Sequence record: OZ336095.1
Source of the DNA: a phage
Strand: one strand, 5' to 3'
Length of the DNA stretch: 64,000 nucleotides
The notes under the pieces were generated by a model, which saw nothing but the letters and a program-made list of their open reading frames with translations, had not been told where the DNA came from and ran no database searches. This document shows positions 8,733 to 19,276 of the stretch, in pieces. Made by a program: the position numbers and the translations under genes. Numbering within the stretch: position 1 is the stretch's first letter; the number at the start of each line of letters is the position of its first letter.

Positions 8733-10085
8733 ATGTGGAATCCAATTGTTAATGTAGATATTACATTGAACACCGCAGGAACTACAAGAGAAGGTTTTGG
8801 TTTGCCACTATTCTTAGCTTCAACAGATAACTTTGAAGAAAGAGTGCGTGGTTACACTTCCTTAACTGAAGTTGCTGAAGATTTCGATGAGAATACTGCT
8901 GCATATAAGGCTGCTAAACAACTTTGGAGTCAGACTCCTAAAGTAACTCAGCTTTATATTGGTAGACGCGCTATGCAGTACACTGTATCAATTCCTGATG
9001 AGGTTACTGAGAGTACGGACTACTCAATTACTGTAGCTGTCGGTGGAGGAATGTCACAACCATTCCAGTACACCTCTCAATCTGAAGATACTGCCGAGAA
9101 GGTATTACAACAGTTTAAAACACAGATTGAAGCTGACCAATCAATTAAAGATAAAGTATCAGTCAATGTTACTGGTAGCAACGGTTCTGCCACAATGGTC
9201 ATCTCCAAAGCTGGTGACAATGATTTCGTGAAGGTAACCACTACAGCACAAACTGTATCTGTTGCAAGCACAACTGCTGATACAGCGTCAACTGCTCTGG
9301 CAGCTATTGAAGCTTATTCTACCGACTGGTATTTCATTGCAGCAGAAGACAGAACTCAACAGTTTGTCTTAGCAATGGCTTCTGAGATTCAGGCTCGTAA
9401 GAAAATCTTCTTCACAGCTAACTCTGATGTAGCAGCACTACAAGGTACAGAATTAAACAGTGCAAATGATGTTCCAGCACAGCTTGCTAAGAGTATGTAT
9501 ACTCGCACAGTTTGCTTGTGGCATCACACAGCGGCAGAAGATTATCCAGAGATGGCATATATTGCTTATGGTGCTCCATACGATGCAGGGTCAATTGCTT
9601 GGGGTAATGCTCAGTTGACTGGTGTAGCTGCTTCTTTACAGCCAGCTAATAAGAGACCTCTGACAAGCATTCAGAAGTCAGCTTTAGATGCACGTCACTG
9701 TAACTTTATCGACCTTGATGGTGGTGTTCCAGTGGTTCGTAGAGGGATTACTTCTGGTGGGGAATGGATTGATATCGTCCGTGGTGTTGACTGGTTAGAA
9801 TCAGACCTGAAAACTTCTCTGAGAGACTTGCTAATTAACCAGAAGGGTGGTAAGATTACTTATGATGATACTGGCATTACCCGTATTCGTCAAGTCATTG
9901 AAACCTCTCTGCAAAGAGCAGTCAACAGAAACTTCCTGTCATCTTACACAGTTAATGTTCCTAAAGCCTCTCAAGTTGCTTTGGCAGACAAGAAAGCTCG
10001 TATCCTGAAAGACGTTACCTTCGCAGGTATCTTAGCAGGGGCTATCTTGGATGTTGACTTGAAAGGTACAGTGGCTTACGAATAA
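8733..10085 (+). CDS. tail sheath protein (putative)
   Basis: 450-aa ORF immediately upstream of tube-sized ORF, chaperone pair and tape measure; synteny. Confidence 0.5.
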   Translation: MWNPIVNVDITLNTAGTTREGFGLPLFLASTDNFEERVRGYTSLTEVAEDFDENTAAYKAAKQLWSQTPKVTQLYIGRRAMQYTVSIPDEVTESTDYSITVAVGGGMSQPFQYTSQSEDTAEKVLQQFKTQIEADQSIKDKVSVNVTGSNGSATMVISKAGDNDFVKVTTTAQTVSVASTTADTASTALAAIEAYSTDWYFIAAEDRTQQFVLAMASEIQARKKIFFTANSDVAALQGTELNSANDVPAQLAKSMYTRTVCLWHHTAAEDYPEMAYIAYGAPYDAGSIAWGNAQLTGVAASLQPANKRPLTSIQKSALDARHCNFIDLDGGVPVVRRGITSGGEWIDIVRGVDWLESDLKTSLRDLLINQKGGKITYDDTGITRIRQVIETSLQRAVNRNFLSSYTVNVPKASQVALADKKARILKDVTFAGILAGAILDVDLKGTVAYE

Positions 10086-10100
10086 TAGAGGTAAATTGGA

Positions 10101-10547
10101 ATGGCTATGTATCAGCAATATTCCCCTAAAGACGTTGTATGTAGCTGGAATGGTATTGCCATTGAAGGCTTTGCCCCAGACTCATTTTTACGTCTACAGA
10201 GAACATCACCACTTATCACACCAGTTGTAGGTGCAGGTGGTCAGGTTGCTCTGACAAGAAATGCAGACAAGACAGGTACTATTGAGATTGAGCTAATGCA
10301 GACTTCTCTCTCTAATCAGATGCTTTCTGCAATTCAAGCTAAACAAGACAATATGGAACTTGAAGAAGATATCTCTTCTAACTTCGTAATCTACGACCCA
10401 TCAGGCTCTGTTCTGGCAACTGGTATTAATGCTTGGTTGCAGGAACTACCACAGATTGAACTTGGTCGTGACCAGAACTCTAAAACTTGGATTTTTGGTT
10501 GTGAGAAGCTAGACTACACTTCAACAATTCCAGCGTCAAGTGTTTAA
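10101..10547 (+). CDS. tail tube protein (putative)
   Basis: 148 aa; followed by strong terminator and G/T chaperone pair. Confidence 0.5.
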   Translation: MAMYQQYSPKDVVCSWNGIAIEGFAPDSFLRLQRTSPLITPVVGAGGQVALTRNADKTGTIEIELMQTSLSNQMLSAIQAKQDNMELEEDISSNFVIYDPSGSVLATGINAWLQELPQIELGRDQNSKTWIFGCEKLDYTSTIPASSV

Positions 10548-10560
10548 TAAATCCTATAAG

Positions 10561-10592
10561 GGGGAGACTTTAAAAGGTCTTCCCCTTTTTTG
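10561..10592 (+). terminator. intrinsic terminator after tail tube gene
   Basis: GC-rich hairpin GGGGAGAC...GTCTTCCCC followed by TTTTTTG. Confidence 0.6.
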
Positions 10593-10619
10593 TTTCTTTT
10601 AAAGTATTAAGGAATCACA

Positions 10620-11018
10620 ATGAAAACAGAATCTAGAGTAATTAATGGTAAGAAAGTAAATATCGTTCTGCTTGGGGCAAGAGATGGTATTAAGATGTCT
10701 ATGAAGTTGGGTAAAATTGTTGTTCCAACCTTTGCACAGATGCTATCAAGTCTGACTGATAAAGATAAGAAAGAGGCTCCAATGGTTCCATTTAAAGAAC
10801 TTGTTGAAGCTTGTTTTGACAGAATTGAAGAAATTAACCTTGAAGAAATGGCTACCCTGTTATTTCAAGGGGCAACTGTTGACGACTTCCCACTTAATAT
10901 TGATACGTACTTCCAAGCAAACTACGGTGAGTTTATTGATTACTTAGCATTTGCGCTGGAGGCAAACTTCGGAAGTTTTTTCGAAGCAAGCATTTTCAAA
11001 AGCCTAACTTCTCAGTAA
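10620..11018 (+). CDS. tail assembly chaperone (G-like)
   Basis: 132 aa between tube and tape measure; contains slippery heptamer near 3' end. Confidence 0.5.
   Translation: MKTESRVINGKKVNIVLLGARDGIKMSMKLGKIVVPTFAQMLSSLTDKDKKEAPMVPFKELVEACFDRIEEINLEEMATLLFQGATVDDFPLNIDTYFQANYGEFIDYLAFALEANFGSFFEASIFKSLTSQ
10976..10982 (+). other. candidate -1 programmed ribosomal frameshift site (T TTT TTC)
   Basis: X XXY YYZ heptamer in frame of 10620 ORF; -1 frame is open from here into the 11021 ORF (read codon by codon, no stop). Confidence 0.45.
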
Positions 11019-11020
11019 AC

Positions 11021-11259
11021 ATGGGTAACACTCTACAGACACCACTAACTGATGCTGCTGTAGAGGCAACCTATGAAGAAGCAGACGAGATGAAATTTGT
11101 GCTTGCTATTTATGGTATGGAAGGGTGTAAAGAAACACTTGACCAACTCTTTGCTATGACATTCTCTGATTTATTATCATTGAGACAATTTCTTGAGATT
11201 CAGAGGTCGTATAAAGAGGAAATTGCTTACAACGAACTTAGAAGAGCAGGAAAAATGTA

Positions 11260-11260
<1 letters not shown>
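11021..11260 (+). CDS. tail assembly chaperone T-portion (likely expressed as G-T fusion)
   Basis: 79-aa ORF in the -1 frame relative to upstream chaperone; ends at ATG of tape measure gene. Confidence 0.45.

Positions 11261-19276
<8,016 letters not shown>

What the first reader, a model, noticed from the sequence alone, without database searches (positions are those of the whole stretch)
10976..11260. Candidate -1 programmed frameshift fusing the two tail-chaperone ORFs
The chaperone ORF 10620-11018 contains the canonical slippery heptamer T TTT TTC at 10976-10982 in the zero frame. Reading codon by codon, the -1 frame from that point is open through the first ORF's stop and into ORF 11021-11260. 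This is the conserved G/GT arrangement found between tail tube and tape measure genes. The ORF track shows the T part as an independent ATG-initiated gene, which is probably not how it is made.
Basis: partly seen in the sequence, partly recalled or inferred. Interest (0 to 1): 0.5.

Follow-up and report, generated by a model that had tools for sequence, protein, structure and literature searches.

The report
Tail chaperone frameshift, already annotated
This Felix O1-like phage makes a longer version of its tail-assembly chaperone when a few ribosomes slip back one base on the sequence TTTTTTC.

Summary
T TTT TTC lies at 10976-10982 in the zero frame of ORF 10620-11018 (AGT TTT TTC = S F F). 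The -1 frame is open from 10940 to 11260, which gives a 213-aa fusion with the junction ...GSFF|RSKHFQKPNF.... The window is a Felixounavirus, and its gene order is sheath, tube, G, T, tape measure.

All 81 related loci that carry the protein motif, forming 24 clusters at 60% amino-acid identity, have T TTT TTY at the nucleotide level. All 81 also have a -1 frame open for 76-124 codons. The window's ATG at 11021 has no Shine-Dalgarno sequence, is ATA in one close relative, and is absent in Erwinia, Hafnia and Pectobacterium relatives. In those relatives, conserved T residues lie upstream of any start codon.

It is not new. GenBank and RefSeq already hold this exact fusion for Salmonella phage Mushroom (AJF40599.1), which differs from the window's product by one residue. 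They also hold it for Moogle, Mijalis and Michonne, and three genome announcements describe it.

One small addition: a GAGG or GGAGG element 13 nt upstream of the heptamer (10958-10962 in the window) is present in 21 of 24 clusters. This looks like a dnaX-style Shine-Dalgarno stimulator. No 3' RNA structure is predicted in this lineage. I found no direct experimental demonstration of the frameshift in this phage group.

The parts
10101..10547 (+). Tail tube gene, the upstream neighbour that defines the G/GT position
   Evidence: PF11681 E 3.6e-7 and phrog_280 E 9e-48. The 16.3-kDa homologue gp64 was detected in Felix O1 virions (PMC3185647).
10558..10597 (+). Intrinsic terminator (13-bp stem plus T run) between the tube gene and G. 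It probably lowers transcription of G, GT and the tape measure relative to sheath and tube.
   Evidence: Terminator scan. A terminator is annotated at the same place in Citrobacter phage Mijalis. The function is inferred.
10609..10613 (+). Shine-Dalgarno sequence (AAGGA) of G, 6 nt before ATG 10620
   Evidence: Read from the sequence. An RBS is annotated at the equivalent place in Mushroom and Mijalis.
10620..11018 (+). G: tail assembly (tape measure) chaperone, 132 aa, the zero-frame product
   Evidence: PF21822 Phage_TAC_15 E 1.2e-19; phrog_1613 E 8e-49. The exact protein occurs on 664 public contigs.
10958..10962 (+). GGAGG, a candidate Shine-Dalgarno-like 5' stimulator, 13 nt upstream of the heptamer (codons CTG GAG GCA)
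   Evidence: GAGG sits at this fixed distance in 21 of 24 protein clusters. The Glu codon is GAG although GAG before a G is used for only 18% of such Glu codons in the window. Expected 7.8-9.5 clusters, P about 5e-7 to 2e-9 if independent. The spacing falls in the 9-14 nt range reported for -1 stimulation (PMC5009743). The function is inferred.
10940..11018 (+). Overlap zone: both the zero frame (G) and the -1 frame (T) are open
10976..10982 (+). Slippery heptamer T TTT TTC (X XXY YYZ) in the G zero frame; the shift site
   Evidence: It is invariant as T TTT TTC (73 loci) or T TTT TTT (8 loci) in 81 of 81 related loci. The codon before it is AGT, TGT or TCT, always ending in T. U_UU.Y is the second most shift-prone A-site motif in E. 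coli (PMC4066793).
10982..11260 (+). T segment: 92 codons read in the -1 frame after the shift (RSKHFQKPNFSVNMGNT...AGKM), then the stop TAA at 11258-11260. Together with 10620-10982 it makes GT, 213 aa.
   Evidence: The T-frame peptide is conserved across lineages. It is identical in Mushroom's deposited GT.
11021..11023 (+). Nominal ATG of the separately annotated T ORF; probably not a real start, or at most a minor one
   Evidence: No SD in the 20 nt upstream (AGCCTAACTTCTCAGTAAAC). It is ATA in L027 and not conserved in other genera. It lies in the stem of a predicted hairpin.
11260..13488 (+). Tape measure protein gene, the downstream neighbour and presumed client of G and GT
   Evidence: PF20155 TMP_3 E 2e-17; phrog_4036. 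The 80.3-kDa gp67 was detected in Felix O1 virions.

Best explanation
This is a -1 programmed ribosomal frameshift in the tail assembly chaperone gene of a Felix O1-like myophage, the lambda G/GT arrangement. Most ribosomes translate 10620-11018 and release G (132 aa). A minority slip while tRNA-Phe occupies both the P site (UUU, 10977-79) and the A site (UUC, 10980-82). Both tRNAs move back one base onto UUU UUU (10976-81). Reading then resumes at CGA (10982) and runs to the TAA at 11258-60, which yields GT (213 aa, ...ANFGSFF-RSKHFQKP...).

By analogy with lambda, the shared G part binds the tape measure protein encoded next (11260-13488). The T part recruits the tube protein. The shift rate would then fix a high G:GT ratio.

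The GGAGG at 10958-62, 13 nt upstream, probably pairs with the 16S rRNA of the elongating ribosome and raises the shift rate, as in E. coli dnaX. No 3' RNA structure appears to be used in this lineage.

Shown here: the sequence anatomy, the gene context, the family assignment, and deep conservation of the heptamer, the frame arrangement, the T peptide and the GAGG. Inferred: that slippage actually occurs, its efficiency, the SD-like effect, and the roles of G and GT.
For: - Anatomy.
- Gene order sheath, tube, G, T, tape measure, and TAC family membership.
- The heptamer T TTT TTY is present in 81 of 81 loci in 24 clusters, down to 23-30% amino-acid identity and from 35% to 65% GC. The wobble base before it is always T, across three different codons (AGT, TGT, TCT). 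The -1 frame is open for 76-124 codons in every locus (one runs off its contig end), while the +1 frame is usually short.
- The T-frame peptide is conserved. In many relatives it starts upstream of any start codon, or inside the overlap with G, so only a shift from G can make it.
- ATG 11021 lacks an SD and is ATA in L027.
- All 92 database homologues of the fusion (cluster representatives) are G-only proteins of 124-136 aa, so the two-frame layout is universally kept.
- The only nucleotide-level match between this window and Erwinia Kolesnikvirus phages in these genes is 41 nt, 10965-11005, centred on the shift site.
- GAGG is conserved 13 nt upstream, within the published 9-14 nt range.
- U_UU.Y is a good A-site shift motif in E. 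coli.
- Independent annotators reached the same junction: Mushroom AJF40599.1, Moogle/Mijalis AIW03804.1/ARB06563.1 and Michonne AKU44019.1. Publications: PMC4319497, PMC4591319, PMC5543628.
- Felix O1 virion proteomics lists sheath, tube and tape measure but neither chaperone ORF, as expected for assembly chaperones.
Against: - I found no experiment in any Ounavirinae phage that shows the GT protein, its junction peptide or its amount. All published statements are annotation by analogy.
- No stable RNA structure follows the heptamer at the usual 5-9 nt (z +0.6 to +0.8), and no structure is conserved across genera. Efficiency may therefore be low.
- Virion mass spectrometry of the relative Sf14 reports the T ORF product (gp42) but not the G ORF product (gp41). 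That is not what a GT-only source of T peptides predicts.
- GAGG is missing in 3 of 24 clusters (Hafnia, Erwinia, L070), so it is not obligatory.
- The statistics treat clusters as independent, which overstates significance.
Confidence: 0.9

Rival explanations
1. Transcriptional slippage instead of ribosomal slippage. RNA polymerase adds one extra U on the T6 run (10976-10981), and ordinary translation of that mRNA gives the same GT protein.
For: One extra U yields exactly the same amino-acid sequence; the CL1 record, which has T7, shows this fused ORF. A weak hairpin (CUGGAG/CUUCGG, 10956-10972) precedes the T run and was picked up as terminator-like. A low level of slippage might be enough for a product needed at a few percent.
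Against: The run is only 6 T in 73 of 81 loci, and 7-8 in the few distinct sequence contexts that carry T TTT TTT. Productive slippage in bacteria is described for runs of about 9 A or T (PMC5009743). The upstream hairpin is not conserved and is not more stable than shuffled sequence in most lineages; only the GAGG is kept. Distant lineages carry hairpins 5-10 nt downstream of the heptamer, the position of a ribosomal stimulator (L075, L080, L097).
Confidence: 0.04
2. There is no recoding. G and T are two separate proteins, and T starts at ATG 11021, as most GenBank records annotate it.
For: An in-frame ATG lies 2 nt after the G stop, so termination-reinitiation is conceivable. Most records, including Felix O1 itself and RefSeq TP1, list two CDS. 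Sf14 virion mass spectrometry detected the T ORF product but not the G ORF product.
Against: ATG 11021 has no SD. It is ATA in L027. There is no start codon upstream of conserved T residues in Erwinia, Hafnia, Pectobacterium and many metagenomic relatives. In L056, L067 and L075 the conserved T motif lies inside the overlap with G. This reading leaves the invariance of the heptamer at synonymous positions unexplained. ATG 11021 sits in a predicted stem.
Confidence: 0.03
3. Both routes operate: GT by frameshift, plus some free T from ATG 11021 (or from processing of GT) in Felixounavirus and Mooglevirus.
For: The ATG is present in nearly all Felixounavirus genomes. Mooglevirus has AGGAAGG upstream of its own ATG, though 12 nt away. 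Sf14 virion mass spectrometry lists T but not G.
Against: The ATG is dispensable (L027) and is not conserved outside close genera. Felix O1 virion proteomics did not list either ORF. The Sf14 preparation was purified only by differential centrifugation.
Confidence: 0.15

Closest known systems
Annotated GT products of Salmonella phage Mushroom (KP143762, AJF40599.1 / YP_009600435.1) and of Citrobacter phages Moogle, Mijalis and Michonne
   Same: Same subfamily (Mushroom is in the same genus). The shift-site region and T-frame product are identical in Mushroom, and the heptamer and junction are the same in all four. Mushroom's GT differs from the window's by one residue, S5F. A -1 frameshift is stated in PMC4591319, and a translational frameshift in PMC4319497 and PMC5543628.
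   Different: Nothing of substance differs. Those annotations are by analogy, with no experiment. They do not mention the upstream GGAGG.
Phage lambda G/GT (Levin 1993; Xu, Hendrix and Duda 2004, 2013, 2014, as summarised in PMC5009743)
   Same: Two overlapping ORFs lie just upstream of the tape measure gene. A -1 shift near the end of G gives a low-abundance GT. The chaperones are not in virions; the Felix O1 proteomics agrees with this.
   Different: Lambda is a siphovirus and uses G GGA AAG (from my own knowledge). I detected no sequence similarity to lambda G: this G belongs to Pfam PF21822, and the T part has no Pfam family. The upstream neighbour here is a myovirus tube gene preceded by a sheath gene. 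A conserved SD-like element is present.
Phage P2 E / E+E' (a myovirus example of the same frameshift; from my own knowledge, Christie et al. 2002)
   Same: A contractile-tail phage with the chaperone pair between tube and tape measure genes, and a U-rich heptamer (T TTT TTG, as I recall it).
   Different: A different protein family. I did not test similarity here.
E. coli dnaX and IS3-family -1 frameshift cassettes
   Same: An internal Shine-Dalgarno-like element lies 9-14 nt 5' of an X XXY YYZ heptamer (13 nt here).
   Different: dnaX and most IS elements use A AAA AAG and also have a 3' stem-loop. The window has T TTT TTC and no predicted 3' structure. dnaX shifts at about 50%, whereas a few percent is expected here.

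Membership tests
Tail assembly chaperone G/GT -1 programmed frameshift (Xu-Hendrix-Duda class) | Two overlapping ORFs lie directly between the major tail/tube gene and the tape measure gene | tested here: met
   Tube 10101-10547, G 10620-11018, T 11021-11260, tape measure 11260-13488.
Tail assembly chaperone G/GT -1 programmed frameshift (Xu-Hendrix-Duda class) | The upstream ORF is a tail assembly chaperone | tested here: met
   [not shown]
Tail assembly chaperone G/GT -1 programmed frameshift (Xu-Hendrix-Duda class) | A slippery X XXY YYZ heptamer lies in the zero frame inside the zone where both frames are open | tested here: met
   T TTT TTC at 10976-10982; the overlap zone is 10940-11018.
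Tail assembly chaperone G/GT -1 programmed frameshift (Xu-Hendrix-Duda class) | The shift site and frame arrangement are conserved in relatives despite sequence divergence | tested here: met
   81 of 81 loci in 24 clusters at 60% identity; the -1 frame is open for 76-124 codons. All 92 database homologues (cluster representatives) stop at the G stop.
Tail assembly chaperone G/GT -1 programmed frameshift (Xu-Hendrix-Duda class) | The downstream segment has no translation start of its own | tested here: inconclusive
   The window has an ATG at 11021 but no SD. The ATG is lost in L027 and absent in other genera, where conserved T residues precede any start. Use of the ATG in this phage cannot be excluded without an experiment.
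Tail assembly chaperone G/GT -1 programmed frameshift (Xu-Hendrix-Duda class) | Both G and GT are made, GT as a minor fixed fraction, and both are needed for tail assembly | not testable with these tools
   I found no experimental report for Ounavirinae.
Tail assembly chaperone G/GT -1 programmed frameshift (Xu-Hendrix-Duda class) | The chaperones are absent from mature virions | tested here: inconclusive
   Literature only. Felix O1 virion proteomics lists gp63, gp64 and gp67 but not gp65 or gp66. Sf14 lists gp42 (T ORF) as detected and gp41 (G) as not detected.
dnaX / IS3-type -1 frameshift cassette | An SD-like sequence 9-14 nt 5' of the heptamer | tested here: met
   GGAGG at 10958-10962, spacer 13 nt; conserved in 21 of 24 clusters; range from PMC5009743. 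This is a resemblance in mechanism, not homology.
dnaX / IS3-type -1 frameshift cassette | A stable stem-loop or pseudoknot 5-9 nt 3' of the heptamer | tested here: not met
   MFE -3.2 to -3.4 kcal/mol, z +0.6 to +0.8. No consensus structure in 8 genera-level sequences. Hairpins are present in some distant lineages (L075, L080, L097).
Programmed transcriptional slippage site | A homopolymer run long enough for RNA polymerase realignment (about 9 A/T in bacteria) | tested here: not met
   The run is T6 in the window and in 73 of 81 loci, with a maximum of 8. The length criterion is from PMC5009743.

The most novel reading that the evidence does not exclude
The frameshift cassette of the PF21822 chaperone relatives examined here (Ounavirinae, Vequintavirinae and many uncultured phages) would have a fixed two-part signal: a Shine-Dalgarno-like GAGG exactly 13 nt upstream of T TTT TTY. 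That would make it a dnaX/IS-type rRNA-pairing stimulator in a phage tail gene. In Felixounavirus it would act without any 3' RNA structure. As far as I know, such a 5' stimulator has not been described for tail chaperone frameshifts. A second, weaker possibility is that the T part, or free T, stays with particles in this group, as the Sf14 mass spectrometry hints, unlike in lambda.
Probability: 0.45. Interest if true: 0.3.

Novelty: already known. Interest (0 to 1): 0.15.

Why it matters
The practical value is in annotation. Most public Felixounavirus records, including Felix O1 itself and several RefSeq entries, list G and T as two independent genes or as hypothetical proteins, and some mislabel them "head closure protein". 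The joined CDS used for Mushroom should be applied to this genome too. These phages are used for Salmonella and E. coli biocontrol and typing, so correct structural-gene annotation has some use.

Biologically this is one more example of the textbook G/GT frameshift. The conserved GAGG at a fixed 13-nt distance, in a lineage with no 3' structure, would be a convenient natural system for studying SD-stimulated -1 frameshifting on a U-rich heptamer. That is an incremental point.

Tried and rejected
- **3' stimulatory RNA structure.** Folding 10983-11030 and 10976-11075, and an RNAalifold run on 8 genera-level sequences, gave no stable or conserved structure at the usual spacing. The hairpin at 11020-11075 (z -3.0) starts 38 nt downstream and is not conserved outside close genera. 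I rejected it as a classical stimulator.
- **Upstream mRNA hairpin as the reason for the conserved GAGG** (and as a slippage or terminator-like element). The pairing partner changes between lineages and the z-scores are unremarkable. Rejected in favour of rRNA pairing, which remains an inference.
- **Pfam scan of T segments** from four lineages: no family.
- **Natural single-ORF fusions.** The only one found is CL1, which has T7, on one contig; I judge it a homopolymer error.
- **Literature.** A full-text search for the heptamer string was uninformative. The Felix O1 and wV8 genome and proteome papers do not mention a frameshift. The Sf14 supplements held no peptide list.
- **A AAG GGG at 14270.** This other heptamer with a long open -1 frame is just an ATGA gene overlap two codons before a stop, not a candidate.

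Full report
**What the window is.** The 1.2 kb around the finding is 98-99% identical to many Felix O1-like myophages of Escherichia and Salmonella (genus Felixounavirus, subfamily Ounavirinae). 295 phage records match, 255 of them over at least 80% of the query. The local gene order is:

- tail sheath, 8733-10085 (phrog_205);
- tail tube, 10101-10547 (PF11681, phrog_280);
- a strong intrinsic terminator, 10558-10587;
- ORF 10620-11018, 132 aa (Pfam PF21822 Phage_TAC_15, 71.5 bits against a cut-off of 22; phrog_1613, "tail assembly chaperone");
- ORF 11021-11260, 79 aa (phrog_4963, "tail assembly chaperone"; no Pfam family);
- tape measure protein, 11260-13488 (PF20155, phrog_4036).

**Checking the observation.** TTTTTTC occupies 10976-10982. 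In the frame of ATG 10620 the codons are AGT (10974), TTT (10977) and TTC (10980), so the heptamer is phased T TTT TTC, the X XXY YYZ pattern. The -1 frame has a TGA at 10937 and is then open from 10940 to the TAA at 11258-11260. ATG 11021 is in that frame.

In this one genome the heptamer is only weakly significant. There are 64 in-frame X XXY YYZ heptamers in about 19,850 codons, so one is expected in a 26-codon overlap zone about 8% of the time. An open -1 frame past a stop is common here because neighbouring genes often overlap in the ATGA pattern.

**Comparative evidence.** This settles the question.

- Eleven annotated relatives from seven groups all carry T TTT TTC in the zero frame near the end of the G homologue, followed by 75-89 further codons open in the -1 frame beyond the G stop. 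The groups are Felixounavirus, Mooglevirus, Suspvirus, Kolesnikvirus, unclassified Hafnia, Pectobacterium and Yersinia phages, and the Vequintavirinae phage CR8 at 27% identity.
- A scan of IMG/VR with the protein motif E[AKV]N[FY][GSK][SC]FF, which is blind to codon choice, returned 80 loci. With one further GenBank locus, 81 of 81 have T TTT TTC (73) or T TTT TTT (8). Every one has a -1 frame open for 76-124 codons; one of them runs off its contig end.
- The loci fall into 24 clusters at 60% amino-acid identity, from 35% to 65% GC. The residue before the two Phe is Ser or Cys, encoded by AGT, TGT or TCT, so its third base is always T. From local codon usage the chance of T TTT TTY given the amino acids averages 0.2 per cluster. 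The clusters are related, so the product of about 1e-20 overstates the case, but the direction is clear.
- A search of 5.8 billion proteins with the fusion found 92 homologues. All are G-only proteins of 124-136 aa, so the two-frame layout is always maintained.
- The only blastn-detectable similarity between the window's chaperone genes and the Erwinia Kolesnikvirus phages is 41 nt at 92.7% identity. It corresponds to 10965-11005, that is, the shift site and the 23 nt after it.

**Is T made on its own?** Probably not, or only marginally.

- The 20 nt before ATG 11021 (AGCCTAACTTCTCAGTAAAC) contain no SD, unlike G (AAGGA, 6 nt upstream).
- In the Felixounavirus contig L027 the ATG is ATA.
- In Mooglevirus and Suspvirus the first ATG sits at a different codon. 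In the Hafnia, Erwinia and Pectobacterium phages the first start codon of any kind in the T frame is at codon 28, 56 and 24 after the shift. Even so, the residues before it align with the window's T sequence (for example CPRTEAAVDEGY..FALYLYGNEDCKET against TPLTDAAVEATY..FVLAIYGMEGCKET).
- In several GC-rich lineages the conserved T motif lies inside the overlap with G.
- ATG 11021 also sits in the stem of a predicted hairpin, 11020-11075.

**Stimulators.** No stable structure follows the heptamer at the usual 5-9 nt (MFE -3.2 to -3.4 kcal/mol, z +0.6 to +0.8), and no structure is conserved across genera. Some distant lineages do have significant hairpins starting 5-10 nt downstream (L075, L080, L097).

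Upstream, a GAGG (GGAGG in the window, 10958-10962) lies exactly 13 nt before the heptamer in 21 of 24 clusters. It arises because the invariant Glu is encoded GAG rather than GAA before a codon starting with G. In the window genome GAG is used for only 18% of Glu codons followed by G (90 of 503). The expected number of clusters with GAG is 7.8-9.5, giving P of about 5e-7 to 2e-9 if the clusters were independent.

The -1 frame is not translated upstream of the shift, so dual coding cannot explain this. The sequence that could pair with GAGG within the mRNA changes between lineages, and the predicted hairpins are no better than shuffled controls. The published range for SD-like stimulation of -1 frameshifting is 9-14 nt (PMC5009743). 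I therefore read it as a dnaX/IS-like rRNA-pairing stimulator. This is an inference, and it is the only part of the analysis I could not find already stated elsewhere. U_UU.Y is the second most shift-prone A-site motif measured in E. coli (PMC4066793).

**What is already known.** Salmonella phage Mushroom (KP143762, genus Felixounavirus) and Citrobacter phage Mijalis carry a two-piece joined CDS, "tape measure chaperone", over exactly this region. I built the fusion at the heptamer for both and looked them up by exact sequence. They equal AJF40599.1 / YP_009600435.1 (Mushroom, 213 aa) and AIW03804.1 / ARB06563.1 / YP_009145710.1 (Moogle and Mijalis, 212 aa). Michonne has an equivalent 212-aa entry. 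Mushroom's GT differs from the window's by one residue.

[quoted passage not shown] All cite Xu, Hendrix and Duda 2004. Most other records still list two separate genes, including Felix O1 itself, RefSeq TP1, SUSP1 and wV8. The Felix O1 and wV8 genome and proteome papers do not mention a frameshift. I found no experiment that demonstrates GT in this group.

**Loose ends.**

- Felix O1 virion proteomics lists gp63 (48.9 kDa, sheath), gp64 (16.3 kDa, tube) and gp67 (80.3 kDa, tape measure), but not the two ORFs between them. That fits chaperones which leave the tail.
- For the Mooglevirus Sf14, a table of particle mass spectrometry lists gp42 (the T ORF) as detected and gp41 (the G ORF) as not detected. 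This shows the T frame is translated, but it is odd if GT is the only source. The preparation was purified only by differential centrifugation, and no peptide list was available.
- Escherichia phage CL1 has T7 instead of T6 and therefore a single 213-aa ORF, 99% identical to my predicted GT. It is one contig among thousands, so it is most likely a homopolymer sequencing error. It does illustrate that one extra U in the mRNA would give the same protein.

**Rivals.** Transcriptional slippage is unlikely on a run of six; the review cites runs of nine. It is not excluded, and I give it 0.04. Pure independent initiation of T contradicts the comparative data (0.03). A mixed model, with GT made by frameshift plus some free T, is possible (0.15, not exclusive of the main explanation). 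Chance is excluded by the conservation.

**Verdict.** It is a standard member of the G/GT tail chaperone frameshift class, and it is already annotated and published for phages of the same genus with an identical site. Novelty: already known. Interest: low (0.15). The practical value is annotation clean-up. The modest new point is the conserved SD-like GAGG 13 nt upstream of a U-rich heptamer that has no 3' structure.

Noticed in passing
window 10558-10597: A strong intrinsic terminator (13-bp stem, 6 GC pairs, T run) lies between the tail tube gene and the chaperone gene. A terminator is annotated at the same spot in Citrobacter phage Mijalis. It probably sets lower expression of G, GT and tape measure than of sheath and tube.
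   Followed up: partly
window 11020-11075: A predicted hairpin (100-nt fold -24.1 kcal/mol, z -3.0) has the nominal T start ATG 11021 in its stem. Core stem: CTCTACAG / CTGTAGAG. A similar stem is possible in Mooglevirus and Suspvirus but not in the Hafnia or Erwinia phages. It starts 38 nt after the heptamer, too far for a classical stimulator, but it could suppress initiation at the ATG.
   Followed up: partly
L006 (Escherichia phage CL1, OK040806.1), locus 601-1242: This record has seven T instead of six at the shift site, so G and T are one continuous 213-aa ORF (UCJ01344.1). It is the only such case seen, most likely a homopolymer sequencing error. If it were real, the phage would make GT only.
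   Followed up: partly
L010 (Citrobacter phage BSwM KMM4, OP902293.1), locus 701-1337: The G homologue is broken into pieces (an 89-aa ORF; tblastn needs three pieces) and the tube gene is truncated. This suggests several indel errors in the record.
   Followed up: no
window 10965-11005: This is an island of nucleotide conservation. It is the only blastn match (41 nt, 92.7% identity) between the window's chaperone genes and the Erwinia Kolesnikvirus phages, whose proteins are only about 43% identical. The 23 nt after the heptamer (CGAAGCAAGCATTTTCAAAA...) are nearly invariant, yet no RNA structure is predicted there. The cause could be dual coding (EASIFK / RSKHFQKP) or an unrecognised 3' element.
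   Followed up: partly
Literature on relatives: Sf14 (PMC11821841, Table 1) and Felix O1 (PMC3185647, Table 4): Sf14 particle mass spectrometry lists the T ORF product (gp42) as detected but the G ORF product (gp41) as not detected. Felix O1 virion proteomics lists neither. This is unexplained. Re-searching the Sf14 raw data with a GT entry would settle it.
   Followed up: partly
[not shown]
   Followed up: no
Public records matched: Annotation and host oddities. G or T is named 'head closure protein' in SUT_S820, C600M2 and VpaE1_ev records, and G 'tape-measure protein' in BPSELC-1. 'Campylobacter phage A132' (MG065664.1) is about 96% identical to Felixounavirus here. A Staphylococcus hyicus assembly holds a G protein of the same 90% cluster (WP_252560994.1). 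These are probably contamination or mislabelling.
   Followed up: no
window 14270-14276: A AAG GGG is the only other in-frame heptamer in the window followed by a long open -1 frame (116 codons). It lies two codons before the stop of 13488-14285, and the -1 frame is simply the next gene (14285-14626), which overlaps it in the ATGA pattern. It is not a frameshift candidate.
   Followed up: yes
Loci L055, L058, L059, L065, L066, L068, L070, L072, L082, L097, about 10-20 nt after the heptamer: Many distant lineages share GGTATTGG (zero frame G-I-G) shortly after the shift site. Some also have significant hairpins starting 5-10 nt downstream (L097 z -5.4, L080 z -3.3, L075 z -2.7). The 3' context therefore differs by lineage, while the heptamer and the upstream GAGG are constant.
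   Followed up: partly
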